DNA of 64,000 nucleotides from Caulobacter sp. KR2-114. Lineage in GTDB: Bacteria; Pseudomonadota; Alphaproteobacteria; Caulobacterales; Caulobacteraceae. Under the pieces are notes generated by a model, which did not search any database, was not told where the DNA came from, and saw only the letters and a program-made list of their open reading frames with translations. The translations under genes and the position numbers were made by a program. This document shows positions 4,371 through 10,607 of this stretch, piece after piece. Positions within the stretch are counted from its first letter, which is position 1. Every line of letters begins with the position of its first letter. The DNA lies in NCBI RefSeq assembly GCF_049446115.1, contig NZ_JBMSEC010000004.1, positions 66,954 through 130,953 of the forward strand, in the 5' to 3' direction.

Positions 4371-4549
4371 GACCTTGCGGCAGGCCCGACGCCCCCGGCG
4401 CGGGCGGCGGGCGCCGGCCTTTCGGCCCCTCCCCGTCCTGGGTGCAGAAATCTGCGCCTTACGGAAAACTCCGTTCGCACAAACCCGCTTTCGCGTGGTC
4501 AAGCTACGCCACAAGCGAAACTGATTCGGGTTGGAGGCGACCATCCCAG

Positions 4550-5251
4550 ATGCGGACCATCGCGGTGATCGCCCGCAAAGGCGGGTCCGGGAAGACCACC
4601 GTGGCGACGCACCTGTCGCTGGCCGCACACCTGCGCGGCTATCGCACCCTGGTCGCCGACACCGATCCCCAGCGGTCGTCCGGCGAGGTGCTGCATGTGC
4701 GCCGCGAGAGCGGACCGCAGTACGTCGACACCACCGGCCGAGATCTCTACGGCGTCCAGGCTCAGGCCGTGCGGGCCGGTGTGGAGGCGATGTTCATCGA
4801 CACCGCCGCCGGCGCCGAGGAGGACCTGGCCAGCGCCATCGTGCTGGCCGATCTGTCGCTGCTGGTGCTGCGCCCGACGTTCCTCGACATGGCGGCCTCG
4901 GTGCACACCGTCGACGTGGTCCGACGGCTGCGCAAGCCGGCGATCATCATCGTCAACCAGGCGCCGGTGATGCGCGAGGGCGCCGAAGCCCCCGCCGTGA
5001 AGCGCGCCCTGCAGGCGCTGCAGATCATGCGGCTGCCGGTCGCGCCGGCGCTGCTGCGCTCGCGCGCCGTCTACCAGACCGCGCTGGAGCACGGCCACTC
5101 GGTGGAGGAGCTCGGCGAGAGCGCGGCGGCCCGCGAGGTCGGCGAGCTGTGGGACTTCGTCGAGCGCTTCGCCTTCGGCAAGCGCGCCGAGCCGGCGCCC
5201 GCCCCGCGCGCGGTGACCGGCGACCTGTTCGCCACGGTCGCCGGCGCCTAG
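4550..5251 (+). CDS. ParA/MinD-family ATPase (small, orphan)
   Basis: Deviant Walker A KGGSGKTT near the N-terminus (MRTIAVIARKGGSGKTTVA). About 233 aa. No adjacent parB. Confidence 0.8.
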   Translation: MRTIAVIARKGGSGKTTVATHLSLAAHLRGYRTLVADTDPQRSSGEVLHVRRESGPQYVDTTGRDLYGVQAQAVRAGVEAMFIDTAAGAEEDLASAIVLADLSLLVLRPTFLDMAASVHTVDVVRRLRKPAIIIVNQAPVMREGAEAPAVKRALQALQIMRLPVAPALLRSRAVYQTALEHGHSVEELGESAAAREVGELWDFVERFAFGKRAEPAPAPRAVTGDLFATVAGA

Positions 5252-5283: not shown

Positions 5284-6126
5284 TCAGACCCTGACGAACC
5301 GCAGGGTCATCCGGTCGCTCTCGCCGATCGCGTCGTACTTCGAGTGATCGAACGCCGGATTGGCCGGCTGGCCGTTGGGGGCGGACTGGCGTGTGGGCGG
5401 CAGGGTCCAGACGCCGAACGGATGGTCCTTGGTGTCCTTCGGGTTGGCGTTGACCTCCGAGCGGCCATCCAGGCGGAAGCCAGCCATCTTCGCCTGGTCG
5501 ATCACCCAGGCTTCGGAGACGTAGCCGGTTCCGGCCTTGGGGTCGGCGCCATCGGGCGCGCGATGGTCCTCGACCCCCATCAGGCCGCTGGGCTTCAGGG
5601 CGGCGTGGAAGTCGGCGAACGCCTTCTGGATGAAGCCATCGGCCCAGTTGTGCGTCTCGCGCGAGACGATCACCAGGTCGACGGTTCCGGGGGGCGCCAG
5701 CGGGCCCGACACCCGGCCGAACCCCGCTACTGTCACATCGCCATAGACGGCCTTGTCGGCGTACTTCGCCTCGAAGGCGGCGCGTCCCTGCCGCGCGGCG
5801 TCGGACAGCTTGGGATTGGCCAGGTCCGCGCCGGCGGCGATGTAGCGGCCATGGGTGGCGGCCAGGTAGGGCGCCAGGATGTCGGTCCACCAGCCGGTCC
5901 CCGGATTGACGTCGATCACCGTCATGCCCGGCTTCAGGCCCCAGAAGGTCAGGGTCTGGGCCGGATGGCGGAAGGCGTCGCGGGCCCGGTCCGCCGGCTT
6001 GCGGCGCGGATCGTCGATTGCCGCCTGCAGTCGCGGATCGATGGGCTGGGCCAGCACCCGCGGGGCGACGGCCAGGGTTGGCAGCGCAAGGCCGGCGGCG
6101 AGCACGGCGCGGCGGTCGAGCGACAT
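5284..6126 (-). CDS. Predicted periplasmic class I methyltransferase (COG4798-like) with Tat-type signal peptide
   Basis: MSLDRRAVLAAGLALPTLAVAPRVLA resembles a twin-arginine signal. MTase-like VIDVNPGTGWWT motif. RBS GGAGGAACTCCC precedes the ATG at 6126. Confidence 0.65.
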   Translation of the reverse strand: MSLDRRAVLAAGLALPTLAVAPRVLAQPIDPRLQAAIDDPRRKPADRARDAFRHPAQTLTFWGLKPGMTVIDVNPGTGWWTDILAPYLAATHGRYIAAGADLANPKLSDAARQGRAAFEAKYADKAVYGDVTVAGFGRVSGPLAPPGTVDLVIVSRETHNWADGFIQKAFADFHAALKPSGLMGVEDHRAPDGADPKAGTGYVSEAWVIDQAKMAGFRLDGRSEVNANPKDTKDHPFGVWTLPPTRQSAPNGQPANPAFDHSKYDAIGESDRMTLRFVRV

Positions 6127-6218
6127 GGGAGTTCCTCCGGTGGCGTCCTGTCTTTGGTCCAGCTTAGGCAAGGGCTCAGCCAGCGCGCCCCAGAAATTCT
6201 GCACGCCGGCGCAGGGGC

Positions 6219-7937
6219 TCAGCGCGGCGCGTGCAGCGCCCGCTCGGTCTCGCGCACATAGACCCGGTCGAACTCCTTCACGTCGTCGGCCAGGGCGTCG
6301 TACTCCACCAGCGAGGGATGGCGGCGCAGCGACTCATCCTTGCGCGGCGCATCGGTCCAGCGCCAGCCGTCCATGCGCCGCTGGGCGTTCCAGCGGTGAT
6401 GTTCGAGCCGCGCGAGCGCCTCACAGCCCTCTTCGTCCGTGAACAGATGATGGTCATCGCCCAGCAGCGGCATGCCGATCACACCGCGCCAGAGGGTGGG
6501 CGCGATCCCGGCGCTGGCCAGCTTCGCCGGGATGTGGGCCACGGCGTCACGGTTGGCCTGGCGGAAGGTTTCTTCCAGCTCGTCCCAGGGGCGCGCCGAG
6601 GTGTTCTTCGGGTCGTCGCGCACCTCCGGCGCCAGCGCGGCCCGGTAGGCGGCGCTGAAGCTGCGCGCCGCGGCGTCCGGCGTGCGCGACAGGAACTCGC
6701 TGGCGGCGAGGATCGCGTCGAGATCGCCGAACGGGGTCAGGGCGTCCAGGCCCCGCGCCTCGCCGTGATGCTCGCCCAGGGCGTTGGCGTCACGCAGACG
6801 CACGAAGATCGGCGCCCGGGCAATGCCCACCGAGCGAAGCATCGACTGCACCATGCCGGCGCTGGCCAGCACCGCCGCGTCCTCGGCCAGGCAGATGTAG
6901 GCCGCGGTCATCGGTCCGCCGGCCTGCACGATGCCGGTCAGGCTGGCGGCGTCCGGCTCGATGGCCTCGCTGGCGACCCGGCCGGCGACGAACACGAACT
7001 CGGCGCACTCGTCGATCTCCGGCGCGCGCAGGCGCATCACCCCTTCCAGGGCCCGGGCCTGGGGGTCGATCACGGTGATGCGCGGCTTTTCCAGATAGGT
7101 GGTGCGACAGTTGACGATCAGGTCGCGGGCGATGGCCTGGCCGGCCTGGCCGAAGCCGACGATCACCGCGTGGATGCGCTGGTGGCCGAAGGCGCGGGCC
7201 AGCAGGAAGGGGGGGTGCGCCTGGTGCAGGGCCCGGGCCGAGATCGCTGCGCGCGACAGCACCCGGGTGCGCGACTGGTTCAGGGTCGCGGCGGCGTCCT
7301 CCGCCAGCCGCGCGTCGCGCATCAGCACGGTGATGAAGGATCTCGGCGCGGCGGCCCTCGCCGCGCGCACCAGGGTCAGGGACAGGGCGTCGTCGGTGTT
7401 GCTGAGCAGCACGTGCTCGGCGTGGCGGCAGTGCTCGTACACCGCGCGGGCGGCGTCCTCCGGCGGCCAGGGCAGGGCGATGGCGCCCATGTTCGAGACG
7501 CCCAGGCTGGGCGCGCCCAGCCAGAGTACGCTGCGCCCCGAGCGGAACGCCTGGTCGAAGGCCTTGGTCGCCAGGGCGCCGGCGCCGATGACCACCACCT
7601 CCTGTTTGAGGAACCGCGCGGCGGCCAGGGCCAGCCGCTCCTGCAGCACCGCGGCCAGCGCCGTGCCGGCGGCGCCGAACACTGCCGCCAGACCCGTCCA
7701 GCGCCCCACCAGAATGCGCCAGTCGTGGGTCGGCGCGCCGCCGCCGTAGACGTCGTTGTAGGCGAACAGGGCGGCCGAGCGGTACAGGGAGTCGGCCACG
7801 GTCGCGCCGGTGTCGATCCAGGCGCGCAGCCCCAGCGCCAGGGTGACCATCACCAGGGTCGGGAGCAGCCACACGGCCCACAGCGAGATCAGGGTGCGCC
7901 GGCGGCCGCCGTGGTCGGTTGGCTTGGCCTCACTCAT
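6219..7937 (-). CDS. Membrane protein: 2 TM helices + two TrkA-N/RCK-like Rossmann domains + C-terminal RyR (ryanodine-receptor) domain
   Basis: Two N-terminal hydrophobic segments. Gly-rich dinucleotide-binding motifs VVVIGAGALATKA and VIVGFGQAGQAIARDL. C-terminus …ARLEHHRWNAQRRMDGWRWTDAPRKDESLRRHPSLVEYDALADDVKEFDRVYV matches the bacterial RyR-domain pattern. Starts 39 nt after the TIR gene stop. Confidence 0.7.
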   Translation of the reverse strand: MSEAKPTDHGGRRRTLISLWAVWLLPTLVMVTLALGLRAWIDTGATVADSLYRSAALFAYNDVYGGGAPTHDWRILVGRWTGLAAVFGAAGTALAAVLQERLALAAARFLKQEVVVIGAGALATKAFDQAFRSGRSVLWLGAPSLGVSNMGAIALPWPPEDAARAVYEHCRHAEHVLLSNTDDALSLTLVRAARAAAPRSFITVLMRDARLAEDAAATLNQSRTRVLSRAAISARALHQAHPPFLLARAFGHQRIHAVIVGFGQAGQAIARDLIVNCRTTYLEKPRITVIDPQARALEGVMRLRAPEIDECAEFVFVAGRVASEAIEPDAASLTGIVQAGGPMTAAYICLAEDAAVLASAGMVQSMLRSVGIARAPIFVRLRDANALGEHHGEARGLDALTPFGDLDAILAASEFLSRTPDAAARSFSAAYRAALAPEVRDDPKNTSARPWDELEETFRQANRDAVAHIPAKLASAGIAPTLWRGVIGMPLLGDDHHLFTDEEGCEALARLEHHRWNAQRRMDGWRWTDAPRKDESLRRHPSLVEYDALADDVKEFDRVYVRETERALHAPR

Positions 7938-7976
7938 CGCCGGACGTTCCGGATGGGCGGCCCATCGCCCCTGCCG

Positions 7977-9110
7977 TCAGTACGGGACGTCCGAGCGGCT
8001 GGCGCGCGACGGGGCGCCGGCGCCGGCGCCGGGGGTCTTGGGCTGGTGACGGCGGGCCGCCTTTTCCGCGGCCGCGGTGGCCGCAGCGCTGTCGCCTTCC
8101 TCGGGCGGCGCGGCCGTGGCGCCAGCGCCGGGCGCGGCGGCGCCAGGGGCGGCGGACGCTGCAGGGGCGGAGGACGCGGCCGGCGCAAGGGTCACGGTCG
8201 GGGTGGCGGCCGCGGCGCTGCTGGCCGGCGCGGCGGTACTGGCGGCGGCGGCCGACGAGCCGGACTTCGGGCCCAGCACGAACCATGCGGCGGCCGCGGC
8301 GGCGGCGACCACCACCACCAGGCCGATGATCAGCGGCAGGGGCGAGCCCTTCTTGCGCGCCGGCGCGGCGGCCGTGGGGGCCGGCGCAGGCTTTGGCGCG
8401 GGGGTCGGGATCGCCGCAGCCGGTTCAGGCGGGGACGCCACGGCCTCGACCGGCGGCGCAGGATCCGCTTCGGGCTCTCGCTCGTCCTCCACCGCCGGCG
8501 GCGCGGCGGGCCAGATGGCGACCGTTTCCGCCGGGGGCTCCGGGGGCGCCGCGGGCGCGACAGGTTCGGGCGCGACAGGTTCGGGGAGCGCCGCCTCAGG
8601 CGCTTGGACCTCGGGCGCGTGCGCCTCCGGCTCCGGCGCAGCCAGCTCAGGCGCTGCAGCGGGGGCCGCCACGCGGGCTGCGCCGGCCGCCTCGACCTCG
8701 CCGATCTCCTCCGGACCGAGCACGTTGGCGATCTGGGAGGCCAGGGCGTTCATCGCCAGCTCCCAGTCGGCGAAGAAGTCGATCCACTGCCGGGTGGCGA
8801 ACTCGTAGGCGAAGGCGTCGTTGGGCGCCACGTCCTCGATGCGCAGCGGCACCACGGTCAGCTTCTGCTGGCTGGCCAGGGCCAGTTCCTTGTTCATCTC
8901 CGCCGAATTGTTCGAGTTGGCGGTGAACACCAGCAGCATCAGCTTGGCCTTGCGGATCGCCCGCACGATGGCCACCTGGAAATTCTCCCCCGGGAGAATG
9001 TCCCGGCTGGAGATCCAGCACTTGAAGCCGCGTCCCTCCAGGGCCTGACAGAGCGTGTTCGCGACCTTGCGGTCCTGCGACGCGAAGCTGATGAAGATAC
9101 TGGCGCTCAT
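7977..9110 (-). CDS. TIR-domain protein with Pro/Glu/Ala-rich linker, single TM helix and Ala/Ser-rich C-terminal tail
   Basis: N-terminal IFISFASQDRKVANTLCQALEGRGFKCWISSRD…LMLLVFTANSNNSAEMNKELALA is a canonical TIR domain (FISxxxxD start, S-x6-EL catalytic-Glu motif). The linker carries PEAPA-type repeats. TM is PLPLIIGLVVVVAAAAAAAWFVLG. Confidence 0.8.
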   Translation of the reverse strand: MSASIFISFASQDRKVANTLCQALEGRGFKCWISSRDILPGENFQVAIVRAIRKAKLMLLVFTANSNNSAEMNKELALASQQKLTVVPLRIEDVAPNDAFAYEFATRQWIDFFADWELAMNALASQIANVLGPEEIGEVEAAGAARVAAPAAAPELAAPEPEAHAPEVQAPEAALPEPVAPEPVAPAAPPEPPAETVAIWPAAPPAVEDEREPEADPAPPVEAVASPPEPAAAIPTPAPKPAPAPTAAAPARKKGSPLPLIIGLVVVVAAAAAAAWFVLGPKSGSSAAAASTAAPASSAAAATPTVTLAPAASSAPAASAAPGAAAPGAGATAAPPEEGDSAAATAAAEKAARRHQPKTPGAGAGAPSRASRSDVPY

Positions 9111-9347
9111 GGAAAGTAGACGCGGCCCCGCCCGAAAACGGCGGCAGTTAAGCTAGAGCCGCGCGCGCGTTGCAAGTGCGAAGTGGTTTTGAGCGCATTT
9201 CGGCATTGGCGAAAACCGCGGCGTGTGCGTAATGGCGGAACAACGGTCGCCCGTCTGGGCAGCTGGCATCATCCACGTTTTACGGGCGGGACTTCTGCGG
9301 ATGGCGACCCTGGTTGCCCGTCGGCGGAAGCATCGAGGGAGTGGGAC

Positions 9348-10607
9348 ATGCGTAAGATGCGCATCGCGCCGGGCCGTGCGCGCCGGGCTATGACCTTGGT
9401 TGCGGGCCTGTTCGGCGCGCTGTCACTGACCGGCGCCGCGCAGGCGGCGGGCGACACCGTGCCGGACAGCACCTGGGCCGCCACCTGGGCCGCCAGCCCC
9501 GAGCCGCCGCGCAGCCCGCCGACGGTGCTCAACAACCAGACCATCCGCGAACTGGCACGCGTCAGCCTGGGCGGCGGGCGCTTCCGCGTGCGGCTGACCA
9601 ACGAATACGGCGCCAAGCCGGTGACCATCGCCTCGGCCCACATCGCCATCGCCACAGGCGTCGGCGCGCAGATCCAGACCCCGAGCGACCGGCAGCTGAC
9701 CTTCAACGGCAAGGCGGTGGTGACCATCCCGGCCTTCTCCAGCGTCGTCAGCGACTCCGTCGACGTGCCGGTGCCGAACCTCTCCACCCTGGCCGTCAGC
9801 CTCTACTTCCCCGGTCCCAGCGGCGACGCGACCAGTCACTTCTTCGGCCTGCAGACCGCCTATGTCGCCGCCGGCGCCCAGACCAGCGCGGCCGACCTGC
9901 CCGGCGCGGCGACCCTGACTGAGCGGCCGTTCGTCTCGGCCATCGAGGTGGGCGTGGCCAAGAAGACCAAGGTGATCGCCGCCATCGGCGATTCCATTAC
10001 CGACGGCTTCGGCTCGCAGATGGGCGCCAACCACCGCTGGCCCGACCACCTGGCGGAGCGGCTGGTGGCCCGCAAGGCGCCGACCTATTTCGCGGTGATC
10101 AACACGGCGATCAGCGGCAACCGGCTGCTGCACGACTTCATCGGCCCGAACGCGCTGTCGCGGCTGGATCGCGACGTGCTGGCCCAGTCCGGCGTGAGCC
10201 ATCTGATCGTGCTGGAGGGGGTCAACGACTTCGGCTTTCCCGGCGCGCGCAAGCTGCTCGACGAGGAGGTCACCGCCGACGACGTGATCATGGCCTACCG
10301 GCAGATCATCCTCCGCGCCCACGCCCACGGCATCAAGGTGATCGGCGCCACCCTGCCGCCCTTCGGGCCGATCCCGTCGCGACCGGGCTTCTACAGCGAG
10401 GCGTCGGCGGCCAAGCGGGTGGCGGTGAACGCCTGGATCCGCAGCGGACGCGCCTTCGACGGCGTGATCGACTTCGACGCCGTGCTGCGCGATCCCAAGG
10501 ACCCGACGCGGCTGAACCCGCTGTACGACAGCGGCGACCACCTCAACCCCAACGACGCCGGCTACAAGGCGATGGCCGACGCGATCGACCTGAAGCTGTT
10601 CGACTGA
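9348..10607 (+). CDS. Secreted SGNH/GDSL-family hydrolase
   Basis: Signal peptide. GDSL block IAAIGDSITDGFG. C-terminal DHLNPND (catalytic Asp/His block). Confidence 0.8.
   Translation: MRKMRIAPGRARRAMTLVAGLFGALSLTGAAQAAGDTVPDSTWAATWAASPEPPRSPPTVLNNQTIRELARVSLGGGRFRVRLTNEYGAKPVTIASAHIAIATGVGAQIQTPSDRQLTFNGKAVVTIPAFSSVVSDSVDVPVPNLSTLAVSLYFPGPSGDATSHFFGLQTAYVAAGAQTSAADLPGAATLTERPFVSAIEVGVAKKTKVIAAIGDSITDGFGSQMGANHRWPDHLAERLVARKAPTYFAVINTAISGNRLLHDFIGPNALSRLDRDVLAQSGVSHLIVLEGVNDFGFPGARKLLDEEVTADDVIMAYRQIILRAHAHGIKVIGATLPPFGPIPSRPGFYSEASAAKRVAVNAWIRSGRAFDGVIDFDAVLRDPKDPTRLNPLYDSGDHLNPNDAGYKAMADAIDLKLFD

What the first reader, a model, noticed from the sequence alone, without database searches (positions are those of the whole stretch)
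7977..9110. TIR protein has unusual topology: cytoplasmic TIR, PEAPA-repeat linker, one TM helix, and an Ala/Ser/Thr-rich extracytoplasmic tail
After the ~135-aa TIR domain comes a ~120-aa Pro/Glu/Ala low-complexity linker. At DNA level 8565-8595 carries a tandem 15-bp repeat gcgacaggttcgggc x2 encoding PEPVA x2. A strongly hydrophobic helix (PLPLIIGLVVVVAAAAAAAWFVLG) follows, then an ~85-aa Ala/Ser-rich tail ending …SRSDVPY.

Most described bacterial defence TIR proteins (ThsB, TIR-STING, TIR-SAVED) are soluble. A TIR tethered to the inner membrane with a disordered outside tail may link TIR activation to an envelope or phage-entry cue. Alternatively it may co-localise the enzyme with the membrane effector encoded downstream.
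Basis: seen in the sequence. Interest (0 to 1): 0.55.

Follow-up and report, generated by a model that had tools for sequence, protein, structure and literature searches.

The report
Membrane-anchored TIR protein beside RyR-domain channel
The gene encodes a TIR immune-type enzyme tethered to the inner membrane with a disordered outside tail, and comparative genomics indicates that it works with the neighbouring ion-channel-like protein, whose ryanodine-receptor-type domain keeps the residues that bind TIR-made ADP-ribose signals.

Summary
ORF 7977-9110 (-) encodes a TIR domain (Pfam 1e-25), a 120-aa Ala/Pro/Glu linker, one strongly hydrophobic helix and a ~95-aa disordered tail. Only the 15-bp repeat coordinates are off by about 8 nt.

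This layout is a family trait. 120 of 121 homologues have the single TM helix. More distant relatives keep TIR+TM but carry Sel1, FGE-sulfatase or DUF4189 modules outside the membrane.

The downstream gene folds like GsuK: a 2-TM pore plus tandem RCK domains. It ends in a RyR Repeat12 domain that retains the H..W, H and D residues which bind or cleave 2'/3'cADPR in phage RyDEP and RyR-Tad (2026 preprints).

The TIR/RyR-channel pairing recurs. It is present in about 60% of orthologue loci with enough flank, and in 5 of 10 distant channel homologues, whose TIR partners have quite different architectures. Orthologous TIR-TM genes elsewhere pair with a SLATT-like protein instead.

Best reading: an undescribed Thoeris-like module in which a receptor-like membrane TIR signals to an ADPR-gated RyR-domain channel. 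No step has been tested biochemically. Most Caulobacterales pairs are convergent, and the locus is not a defence island.

The parts
7977..9110 (-). Gene for the 377-aa TIR / linker / TM / tail protein (stop codon 7977-7979)
   Evidence: ORF list; Pfam TIR_2 1e-25; more than 600 homologues
8706..9110 (-). TIR domain (residues 1-135), predicted cytoplasmic
   Evidence: Pfam. AF2 pLDDT 70-91. Nearly invariant across 27 homologues.
8886..8888 (-). Codon of Glu75, the candidate catalytic glutamate (motif NKELALA)
   Evidence: Invariant in alignment A1. Aligns with E77 of SPARTA TIR-APAZ in the phmmer alignment to 8z92 (residue counted by me). That E77 is catalytic is from my knowledge of Koopal et al. 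2022.
8349..8705 (-). Ala/Pro/Glu low-complexity linker (residues 136-254), length-polymorphic in the family
   Evidence: Composition. No structure in AF2. Linker length 24-160 aa, median 100, across 120 homologues.
8552..8586 (.). 15-bp tandem duplication encoding PEPVAPEPVAP
   Evidence: TRF: 2.3 copies, 100%; sequence read directly
8268..8342 (-). Single transmembrane helix (residues 257-281), preceded by ARKKG
   Evidence: KD 2.72; AF2 helix 258-279; present in 120 of 121 homologues
7992..8267 (-). Ala/Ser/Thr/Pro-rich disordered tail (residues 282-373) with a basic patch near its end; predicted periplasmic
   Evidence: Composition. pLDDT below 50. Tail length 30-113 aa in the family, with a mean of 6.1 K/R/H in positions -25..-5.
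7980..7991 (-). Conserved C-terminal motif D-V-P-Y-COOH
   Evidence: [DE][VIL]P[YF] at the C-terminus in 109 of 121 homologues; P[YF] in 116. Retained in minimal ~214-aa versions.
6219..7937 (-). Downstream gene, 39 bp after the TIR stop: 572-aa 2-TM / tandem-RCK / RyR-domain channel-like protein. It is 100% identical to 'RyR domain-containing protein [Caulobacter sp. KR2-114]'.
   Evidence: AF2 pLDDT 83.7, pTM 0.75. Foldseek top hits GsuK, MthK, TrkA.
7611..7892 (-). Membrane part of the channel-like protein: TM1 (16-42), short re-entrant-type helix (47-58), loop, TM2 (73-109). There is no conserved K+ filter (NDVYGGG here, variable in homologues).
   Evidence: AF2 secondary structure; alignment A2
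6693..7598 (-). Two Rossmann/RCK-like domains (114-250 and 256-415). The second has invariant GFGxxG and Asp291.
   Evidence: AF2; Foldseek hits to GsuK and TrkA gating rings; invariant columns
6234..6683 (-). C-terminal RyR (Repeat12-type) domain with H513, W516, H540 and D557
   Evidence: Pfam RyR 1.8e-9, 38.1 bits against a cut-off of 27.4. PDB hits to RyR1/3 Repeat12 and the Bacteroides RyR-like protein 3nrt. The four residues are invariant and have the spacing of the RyDEP and RyR-Tad ligand residues.
9348..10607 (+). Possible accessory gene: secreted GDSL/SGNH hydrolase, divergent from the TIR gene
   Evidence: Pfam Lipase_GDSL 7e-27. Orthologue next to the TIR or RyR gene in 11 related loci, including the distant L031 and L034. 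Functional link not established.
5284..6204 (-). Possible operon member: methyltransferase-like protein with a Tat-type leader, 14 bp downstream of the channel gene
   Evidence: Weak Pfam Methyltransf_23. Conserved in this position only in the closest relatives (L001, L002, L084-L088).

Best explanation
The ORF encodes a single-pass inner-membrane TIR protein. The catalytically competent-looking TIR domain sits in the cytoplasm. A flexible Ala/Pro/Glu spacer connects it to one TM helix. A disordered periplasmic tail ends in a basic patch and a conserved D-V-P-Y carboxy-terminus.

It belongs to a receptor-like family, TIR(in)-TM-variable module(out). In this family the outside part is the input: it binds an envelope component or partner through the tail motif, or through Sel1, FGE or DUF4189 domains in relatives.

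Together with the adjacent gene it forms a Thoeris-like two-gene signalling module.
1. On activation, presumably by clustering of the TIR domains, the TIR converts NAD+ into ADP-ribose or a cyclic ADPR isomer.
2. This nucleotide binds the cytoplasmic RyR Repeat12 domain, and possibly the NAD-type RCK domain, of the neighbouring GsuK-like channel.
3. The pore opens, and the resulting ion flux or depolarisation arrests the cell or changes its physiology.

Shown here: the domain architecture, its conservation, the gene linkage, the effector swap, and conservation of the ligand residues.

Inferred: topology, enzymatic product, ligand gating, and the biological role (anti-phage or envelope-stress).
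For: Architecture and conservation:
- Domain layout established.
- Swappable ectodomains (Sel1, FGE-sulfatase, DUF4189) sit behind the same highly conserved TIR+TM.
- Glu75 is invariant and aligns with the catalytic Glu of SPARTA TIR.

Downstream protein:
- It folds as 2-TM pore + tandem RCK + RyR domain. Best structural matches are GsuK (E 6e-7), MthK and TrkA.
- The RRR stretch before TM1 predicts that the RCK and RyR domains are cytoplasmic.
- The RyR domain keeps H513/W516/H540/D557, which are invariant in 24 homologues and in 30%-identical relatives.
- These residues match, in position and spacing, RyDEP H75/W78/H100/D117 and RyR-Tad H129/W132/H154/D171. Those residues bind or cleave 2'/3'cADPR (PMC13232231; 10.64898/2026.06.04.730250).

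Gene linkage:
- Sampled from the TIR side, a channel orthologue is adjacent in 15 of 80 loci.
- Sampled from the channel side, a TIR gene is adjacent in 30 of 80 loci, about 27 of 43 orthologues with enough flank. Only 13-222 bp separate the genes.
- Five of ten channel homologues at 28-33% identity have a TIR gene directly adjacent on the same strand, with unrelated TIR architectures: TIR-TM-ectodomain (L144), TIR-multiTM (L157), TIR-WD40 (L156, L162) and a 498-aa TIR protein (L154).

Effector swap:
- Orthologous DVPY-type TIR-TM genes in Phenylobacterium and in L031/L034 (Steroidobacteraceae and an unclassified Pseudomonadota MAG) sit next to a DUF4231/SLATT-like membrane protein instead.
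- TIR + SLATT is the validated type VII Thoeris arrangement (10.64898/2025.12.03.692087).

In the window the two genes are co-directional, 39 bp apart, with no terminator-like site between them on the coding strand.
Against: - No biochemistry exists for any member.
- In most Caulobacterales loci the two genes are convergent, so they are not one operon.
- About 40% of channel orthologues with enough flank have no adjacent TIR.
- Most Sel1/FGE/DUF4189-type relatives have no recognisable partner.
- Neighbours in the window are metabolic genes, not a defence island. PADLOC has no model for the channel.
- The TIR domain is unusually conserved for an immune sensor: 75-95% identity across Caulobacterales and 55-70% across orders.
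- Its closest profile matches are short-pAgo/SPARTA-type TIRs. To my knowledge these make linear ADPR and deplete NAD+ rather than signal.
- The channel lacks a conserved selectivity filter, and only a monomer was modelled.
- The RyR domain also keeps the His/Asp dyad that makes RyDEP a glycosidase. It could therefore degrade a signal rather than sense one.
- The topology rests on a modest positive-inside bias and on analogy; no dedicated predictor was available.
Confidence: 0.5

Rival explanations
1. Stand-alone sensor-effector. The membrane TIR is itself the executioner. An envelope cue triggers oligomerisation and NAD+ depletion, as in SPARTA or SARM1. The RyR-domain protein is not its effector. 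It acts as a regulator that hydrolyses or buffers ADPR-type products (RyDEP-like glycosidase or sponge), or as a homeostatic channel that senses NAD/ADPR.
For: - The best profile matches of the TIR are short-pAgo-associated NADase TIRs. The PDB alignments are to SPARTA TIR-APAZ.
- Many TIR-TM relatives have no conserved partner.
- The RyR domain retains the RyDEP catalytic His/Asp pair.
- GsuK RCK domains bind NAD and ADP (entry titles).
Against: - A hydrolase or sponge has no need to be fused to a 2-TM pore and tandem RCK domains.
- The mutually exclusive pairing of orthologous TIR-TM genes with either the RyR channel or a SLATT-like pore former is the pattern of swappable effectors.
- Distant channel homologues pair with cytosolic TIR-WD40 sensors.
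Confidence: 0.2
2. Housekeeping envelope signalling rather than immunity. The pair is a conserved physiological pathway of Caulobacterales and other Alphaproteobacteria. A periplasmic or cell-wall state is read through the tail motif or ectodomain, and it is translated through an NAD-derived second messenger into regulated ion flux. The mechanism is the same as in the best explanation, but the biological role differs.
For: - Very high TIR conservation and apparently vertical inheritance within Caulobacterales.
- Ordinary metabolic neighbourhood.
- Recurrent neighbouring secreted SGNH hydrolase.
- Sel1-type periplasmic modules, which the Aravind group lists among peptidoglycan-associating domains preceded by a TM segment (PMC7159879).
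Against: - Distribution appears patchy: 92 confirmed relatives among 185,579 species genomes. The pattern scan required exact peptide matches, so this is a lower bound.
- Several paralogues with different ectodomains occur on one contig (L062, L070, L073).
- Effector swapping is typical of conflict systems.
Confidence: 0.2
3. The adjacency is inherited synteny without functional coupling, and the TIR domain acts as a non-enzymatic protein-interaction scaffold at the membrane.
For: - Convergent orientation in most Caulobacterales loci.
- No experimental data.
- TIR domains can be pure adaptors (established for animal TLR signalling).
Against: - The pairing recurs at 28-33% channel identity, in hosts of 41-70% GC, with unrelated TIR architectures and in operon-like same-strand arrangement.
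- Flanking genes differ between loci while the pair persists.
- The catalytic Glu is invariant.
Confidence: 0.08

Closest known systems
Thoeris anti-phage systems (ThsB TIR sensor plus signal-activated effector), especially type VII (TIR + SLATT effector ThsH, canonical cADPR) and type X (TIR + small 'ion channel' effector); Sorek-lab preprint 10.64898/2025.12.03.692087
   Same: - Two-gene logic: a TIR protein next to a membrane effector.
- Orthologues of this TIR pair with a DUF4231/SLATT-like protein in other genomes.
- The effector carries a domain now known to bind cADPR isomers.
   Different: - The TIR is membrane-anchored with an extracytoplasmic module, whereas described ThsB proteins are soluble.
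- The effector is a 572-aa GsuK-like RCK channel with a RyR domain, which is not among types I-XI.
- The type X effector is a ~210-230-aa protein with no Pfam hit and no similarity to it.
- The locus is not in a defence island.
- Most pairs are convergent.
Phage RyR-domain proteins RyDEP (PMC13232231) and RyR-Tad (10.64898/2026.06.04.730250)
   Same: Same Pfam family, PF02026. The His-x-x-Trp, His and Asp ligand residues are conserved with identical spacing.
   Different: The phage proteins are small soluble dimers (the homologue examined here, Rexella gp76, is 165 aa; RyR-Tad gp68 about 183 aa) that destroy or sequester the host signal. Here the domain is host-encoded, fused to a channel and linked to the signal-producing TIR. 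That suggests a receptor role.
GsuK / MthK RCK-gated 2-TM K+ channels
   Same: Fold and domain order: TM1, pore-type helix, TM2, then tandem RCK (Foldseek E 6e-7 to GsuK). The second RCK domain has a GxGxxG motif and a conserved Asp.
   Different: - No TVGYG-type selectivity filter; the loop is variable.
- An extra C-terminal RyR domain.
- Sequence identity is only 12-18%.
Animal cADPR / ryanodine-receptor signalling
   Same: An NAD-derived ADPR nucleotide maker (a TIR here; SARM1 or CD38 in animals) linked to a cation-channel protein carrying a Repeat12 domain.
   Different: The pore is a small 2-TM RCK channel, not a 6-TM RyR. The resemblance lies in one domain and in logic. Whether cADPR binds animal Repeat12 is itself unresolved.
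SPARTA / short-pAgo TIR-APAZ
   Same: Closest TIR profiles (PADLOC 7e-15). The KEL(A) catalytic-Glu motif aligns.
   Different: No APAZ domain and no pAgo partner. This protein is membrane-anchored.

Membership tests
TIR domain superfamily (Pfam TIR_2, PF13676) | Profile match above the curated cut-off | tested here: met
   91 bits against a cut-off of 28, E=1e-25, residues 5-120
Enzymatic (NADase/cyclase) TIR domains | Conserved catalytic glutamate | tested here: met
   Glu75 is invariant in 27 homologues and aligns with SPARTA TIR-APAZ E77. Activity itself was not tested.
Thoeris-type TIR signalling system | TIR gene genetically linked to an effector gene | tested here: met
   39-bp same-strand spacing in the window. 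Adjacency recurs in orthologues and in five distant homologues.
Thoeris-type TIR signalling system | Effector carries a domain that binds the TIR-made nucleotide | tested here: inconclusive
   The RyR domain has all four residues that bind gcADPR in the phage homologues. Binding was not measured.
Thoeris-type TIR signalling system | Anti-phage function and defence-island context | tested here: not met
   Neighbours are beta-lactamase-family, methyltransferase, ParA-like, thiolase-like, ABC transporter and subtilase genes. The defence phenotype cannot be tested with these tools.
Type X Thoeris (TIR + ion channel) | Effector homologous to the type X channel; ThsB_TIR (PF08937)-type TIR | tested here: not met
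   Type X effectors (L165, L166) are 208-233 aa with no Pfam hit. BLASTP against the window protein gives E=2.3. The window TIR matched only TIR_2 and TIR in the Pfam scan, not ThsB_TIR.
Type VII Thoeris (TIR + SLATT) | SLATT-domain effector next to the TIR gene | tested here: not met
   There is no SLATT-like gene in the window (tblastn). It is present beside orthologous TIR genes in 9 other loci, with Pfam hits below the gathering score.
RyR Repeat12 domain (PF02026) | Profile match above the cut-off, plus the ligand residues H-x-x-W, H and D | tested here: met
   38.1 bits against 27.4. PDB hits to RyR1/3 Repeat12. H513, W516, H540 and D557 are conserved.
RCK-gated 2-TM K+ channels (GsuK/MthK) | 2-TM pore fold followed by RCK domains | tested here: met
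   AF2 model at pLDDT 83.7. Foldseek hits GsuK at 6e-7 and MthK at 1.6e-5.
RCK-gated 2-TM K+ channels (GsuK/MthK) | K+ selectivity filter T-V-G-Y-G | tested here: not met
   The loop reads NDVYGGG in the window and is not conserved in 24 homologues.
SSB C-terminal tip (D-D-D-I-P-F) | Acidic tip on a cytoplasmic OB-fold ssDNA-binding protein | tested here: not met
   Only the last 4-5 residues resemble it. There is no OB fold. The segment before the motif is basic, not acidic, and it is predicted to be periplasmic.

The most novel reading that the evidence does not exclude
Bacteria possess a TIR-to-RyR-domain-channel axis. A transmembrane, receptor-like TIR protein (a Toll-like-receptor layout in reverse order) reads an envelope cue. 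It produces an ADPR-type nucleotide that directly gates a host ion channel through a Repeat12 domain. This would be a prokaryotic counterpart, and possibly the evolutionary source, of the Repeat12 nucleotide site of animal ryanodine receptors, and a new Thoeris type with an outside-sensing ThsB.
Probability: 0.35. Interest if true: 0.9.

Novelty: new variant of a known kind. Interest (0 to 1): 0.78.

Why it matters
Three points would follow if the reading is right.

1. TIR immune sensors described in bacteria are cytosolic. A family with a cytoplasmic TIR, one TM helix and interchangeable periplasmic modules would be a route by which TIR signalling reads the cell envelope, for example phage adsorption or entry, or wall damage.

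2. Two 2026 preprints showed that phage RyR-domain proteins bind or cleave cADPR isomers. Neither identified a host protein that uses this domain. A host channel carrying the domain, genetically coupled to TIR genes in unrelated lineages, is the obvious candidate receptor and a new effector class.

3. It offers a small, tractable bacterial system for testing whether a Repeat12 domain can couple ADPR-nucleotide binding to channel gating. That question is still open for animal ryanodine receptors.

Tried and rejected
- K+ channel with a degenerate filter: the 'NDVYGGG' loop looked filter-like but is not conserved. I therefore claim only a GsuK-like fold.
- Identity with type X Thoeris: tested by retrieving type X loci. 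The effectors are unrelated.
- Cleaved signal peptide or signal-anchor: the hydrophobic segment lies about 255 residues from the N-terminus, and the protein begins with the TIR beta-strand. Rejected.
- TIR outside the membrane: rejected. It would require export of a 250-residue N-terminal domain without a signal peptide, and there is no periplasmic NAD+ (inference).
- SSB-tip mimicry by ...DDIPF/DVPY: attractive, but the predicted topology, the basic context and the periplasmic-type modules in relatives argue against it. Left unexplained.
- Defence-island context: not found.
- PADLOC and NCBIfam: only sub-threshold TIR hits, and nothing for the channel.
- tblastn of the RyR domain against phage genomes: no hit at E<=1e-3, and only weak hits (E about 0.01) to N4-like Erwinia phage RyR proteins. 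One of these was used for the residue alignment.
- Profile search of the SLATT-like partner against the PDB: nothing. Its N-terminal domain looks SLOG-like by eye, but this is unverified.
- Promoter and terminator scan: uninformative.
- Exact look-up of the TIR protein in the protein collection: absent.
- My first gene-clustering pass used a GC3 filter that lost low-GC loci, and my TIR HMM was too family-specific. It missed the TIR genes of L154, L156 and L162, which Pfam later found.
Full report
OBSERVATION. ORF 7977-9110 on the minus strand encodes 377 aa.
- Pfam TIR_2 matches residues 5-120 (E=1e-25, 91 bits against a cut-off of 28).
- Residues 136-255 contain 39 Ala, 32 Pro and 17 Glu out of 120.
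- The best 19-residue Kyte-Doolittle window (2.72) is IIGLVVVVAAAAAAAWFVL at residues 261-279.
- The last 92 residues contain 38 Ala, 12 Pro, 11 Ser and 7 Thr, and end in SRSDVPY.
- Tandem Repeats Finder reports a perfect 15-bp repeat of 2.3 copies at 8552-8585. Read directly, gcgacaggttcgggc lies at 8557-8571 and 8572-8586.
- An AlphaFold2 model built on 27 homologues folds residues 1-147 (pLDDT 70-91). It gives the linker no secondary structure, predicts a helix at 258-279 (pLDDT about 80), and leaves the tail below pLDDT 50.

The description is correct. 'PEAPA repeat' is better described as low-complexity sequence with one short exact duplication.

THE ARCHITECTURE IS A FAMILY TRAIT. A search of 5.8 billion proteins returned more than 600 relatives. 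Those that carry a source name are annotated as Caulobacteraceae, Caulobacterales or Phenylobacterium.
- Among the best 120 plus the query, 120 of 121 have one strongly hydrophobic helix after the TIR domain.
- The linker is 24-160 aa (median 100) and the tail 30-113 aa (median 77).
- The TIR domain is nearly invariant, including Glu75 in NKELALA.
[DE][VIL]P[YF]-COOH occurs in 109 of 121 members, and Pro-[YF] in 116. It is preceded by a basic patch with a mean of 6.1 K/R/H in positions -25 to -5.
- Minimal versions of about 214 aa keep only the TIR, a short linker, the TM helix, about 35 residues and ...ETNDVPY/F.

A scan of 185,579 species genomes found 92 confirmed relatives, of which the best 80 were examined. 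They come from Caulobacterales, Stellaceae, Xanthobacteraceae, Acetobacteraceae, Rhizomicrobium and Steroidobacteraceae. Outside the 'DVPY-tail' clade the same TIR (55-70% identical) and a TM helix are followed by large C-terminal modules. These are Sel1 repeats, FGE-sulfatase, DUF4189 or unassigned domains. One contig carries three paralogues, two of them with different ectodomains and one without a TM helix (L062, L070, L073). The family is therefore TIR / one TM / interchangeable C-terminal module.

TOPOLOGY. No dedicated predictor was available. The evidence for N-in/C-out is as follows.
- The protein begins directly with the first TIR strand and has no signal peptide.
- The TM helix is about 255 residues in.
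- K+R counts in the 15 flanking residues are 4 (N side) against 1 (C side) here. The family means are 3.0 against 2.4, with N>C in 66 members and N<C in 16.
- The modules after the TM in relatives are of kinds usually found in the periplasm. This rests on my own knowledge. The Aravind group also lists Sel1 among peptidoglycan-associating domains preceded by a TM segment (PMC7159879).
- A TIR NADase needs cytoplasmic NAD+ (inference).

I rate a cytoplasmic TIR at about 0.85.

THE TIR DOMAIN. The best PDB sequence matches are TIR-STING (6wt6) and SPARTA TIR-APAZ (8z92, 8ifk). In the printed alignment, Glu75 pairs with residue 77 of TIR-APAZ (counted by me). To my knowledge that residue is the catalytic Glu. 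The best PADLOC matches are short-pAgo-associated TIRs (7e-15), followed by ThsB (6e-7). NCBIfam gives only sub-threshold Thoeris and retron-TIR hits. The domain therefore looks catalytically competent, but its product cannot be predicted.

THE DOWNSTREAM GENE. Gene 6219-7937 (-) starts 39 bp after the TIR stop. Its product is 100% identical to 'RyR domain-containing protein [Caulobacter sp. KR2-114]', which identifies the source organism.
- Pfam finds a RyR domain (PF02026, 1.8e-9, above the cut-off) at residues 505-569, plus weak NAD-binding hits.
- The AF2 model (pLDDT 83.7, pTM 0.75) shows TM1 16-42, a short helix 47-58, TM2 73-109, two Rossmann-type domains (114-250 and 256-415) and a helical C-terminal domain (419-568).
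- The best Foldseek hits against the PDB are the GsuK channel (2-TM pore plus tandem RCK, with NAD- and ADP-bound entries; E=6e-7). MthK, TrkA, Slo gating rings and human RyR3 Repeat12 follow.
- There is no K+ filter. The loop reads NDVYGGG here and varies among 24 homologues.
- The second Rossmann domain has invariant GFGxxG and Asp291.
- An RRR stretch precedes TM1, so the RCK and RyR domains should be cytoplasmic, on the same side as the TIR domain.

WHY THE RyR DOMAIN MATTERS. Two 2026 preprints show that phage RyR-domain proteins act on TIR-made signals.
[quoted passage not shown] Its ligand and catalytic residues are H75, W78, H100 and D117, and several homologues are nanomolar sponges (PMC13232231).
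- RyR-Tad binds 3'cADPR, 2'cADPR and cADPR through H129/W132, K147/H154 and K170/D171 (10.64898/2026.06.04.730250).
- In both proteins the spacing from the first His is +3, +25 and +42.

I aligned an annotated N4-like phage RyR protein (Erwinia phage Rexella gp76) with the window domain and with two 30%-identical channel homologues. H, W (+3), H (+25) and D (+42) are invariant. In the window protein these are H513, W516, H540 and D557, with a two-residue loop insertion. All four are invariant in 24 orthologues. The domain thus keeps the full ligand site, including the RyDEP catalytic dyad.

GENE LINKAGE. Sampled from the TIR side (80 genome loci), a channel orthologue is adjacent in 15. It lies on the same strand in L001, L002 and L024, as in the window, and is convergent in 12.

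Sampled from the channel side (80 metagenome loci), a TIR gene is adjacent in 30. That is roughly 27 of 43 orthologues that have at least 1.3 kb of the relevant flank. The genes are separated by 13-222 bp. The outer flanking genes differ between loci. Random look-ups gave one convergent pair, one locus without a TIR, and one locus with a different TIR_2 plus Sel1 gene pair about 1 kb away.

The decisive evidence comes from channel homologues of only 28-33% identity, from hosts of 41-70% GC. Five of the ten with usable flanks have a TIR gene directly adjacent on the same strand, and the TIR architectures are unrelated:
- L144: TIR-TM-large ectodomain;
- L157: TIR-coiled coil-multi-TM;
- L154: a 498-aa TIR protein;
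- L156 and L162: TIR-WD40 proteins.

The channel is the constant partner and the TIR protein varies, which is the pattern of an effector with diverse sensors.

EFFECTOR SWAP. Orthologous DVPY-type TIR genes in Phenylobacterium-like genomes instead sit next to, and on the same strand as, a ~590-aa protein. Its central 2-TM region hits DUF4231 (7 of 8 members, best E=2e-5) and SLATT_3 (5 of 8). These hits are below the gathering scores. A distant relative of that protein precedes the NLPY-ending TIR genes of L031 and L034 (Steroidobacteraceae and an unclassified Pseudomonadota MAG). About 24 of 30 DVPY-type loci with usable flanks have one partner or the other, never both. TIR + SLATT is the experimentally validated type VII Thoeris, which signals with canonical cADPR (10.64898/2025.12.03.692087).

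COMPARISON WITH KNOWN SYSTEMS. The same preprint validates type X Thoeris, a TIR plus an 'ion channel', with an unknown signal. I retrieved type X loci through their ThsB sequence. The effector is a 208-233-aa protein with no Pfam hit and no similarity to the window protein (BLASTP E=2.3). 'RyR' does not occur in that paper's supplements. 'Transmembrane' does not occur in either RyR preprint. A full-text search for RyR plus Thoeris returned only those two preprints and an unrelated review. PADLOC 2.0 has no model for the channel. I therefore found no description of a host RyR-domain channel linked to TIR genes, nor of this TIR-TM-ectodomain family.

CAVEATS.
- Most Caulobacterales pairs are convergent.
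- A substantial minority of each gene occurs without the other.
- The window neighbourhood is metabolic (beta-lactamase family, methyltransferases, ParA-like, thiolase-like, ABC exporters, subtilase).
- The TIR domain is far more conserved than typical ThsB sensors.
- The TIR is closest to NAD-depleting SPARTA TIRs.
- The RyR domain could be a hydrolase rather than a sensor.
- The biological role (anti-phage or envelope physiology) is open, and the function of the DVPY terminus is unknown.

VERDICT. The finding extends to a likely new Thoeris-like module in which a receptor-like membrane TIR is coupled to a RyR-domain RCK channel. Confidence is about 0.5 for the full mechanism. It is higher for the architecture (about 0.9) and for the functional coupling of the two genes (about 0.65).

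Noticed in passing
window 7980-7991 (-) and the C-termini of P0001-P0120: The conserved terminus (...DDIPF, DDVPY, EDIPY, SDVPY) resembles the SSB C-terminal tip D-D-D-I-P-F, and also class-II PDZ ligands (hydrophobic-x-hydrophobic-COOH). It is predicted to be periplasmic and follows a basic patch. No partner was identified.
   Followed up: partly
window 9348-10607 (+): A secreted GDSL/SGNH hydrolase lies divergent from the TIR gene. An orthologue sits next to the TIR or RyR gene in 11 related loci, including the distant L031 and L034 (Steroidobacteraceae and an unclassified Pseudomonadota MAG), where the partner is the SLATT-like gene. It may be a third component acting on the envelope.
   Followed up: partly
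window 5284-6204 (-): A methyltransferase-like protein with a Tat-type leader (SLDRRAVLAAGLALP) lies 14 bp downstream of the channel gene on the same strand. It holds this position only in the closest relatives (L001, L002, L084-L088).
   Followed up: partly
L003, L005, L013, L019, L023, L029, L030, L035 (cluster c4): A ~190-240-aa predicted lipoprotein accompanies the SLATT-like gene and the TIR gene in Phenylobacterium-type loci. Its function is unknown.
   Followed up: no
L062, L070, L073 (contig CAVTCD010000009.1); L036, L049, L059 (assembly DATGFU01): Several paralogous TIR genes of this family occur in one genome, each with a different C-terminal module. Three lie within about 120 kb on one contig.
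   Followed up: no
L083 4342-4860 and 7746-10066: A Multi_ubiq (PF14452) gene lies directly upstream of a RyR-channel orthologue. A 536-aa TIR_2 protein and a separate Sel1 protein lie about 1 kb downstream.
   Followed up: no
L163 3351-4721 (-); L160 6676-8973 (+); L152 2335-5055 (+): Distant RyR-channel homologues without a detectable TIR have other neighbours. These are a patatin-like phospholipase (divergent), an unassigned 766-aa protein, and an unassigned 907-aa protein overlapping the channel start. They may be alternative sensors or signal makers.
   Followed up: no
window 6231-9119 (+): A 962-aa open frame runs antisense to both genes. It is Arg/Gly-rich and typical of spurious ORFs in 71-75% GC DNA. 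There is no evidence that it is a gene.
   Followed up: no
window 4442-5251 (+): A ParA/MinD-like ATPase gene with no obvious partner lies next to the module. It is conserved at this position in L001 and L002.
   Followed up: no
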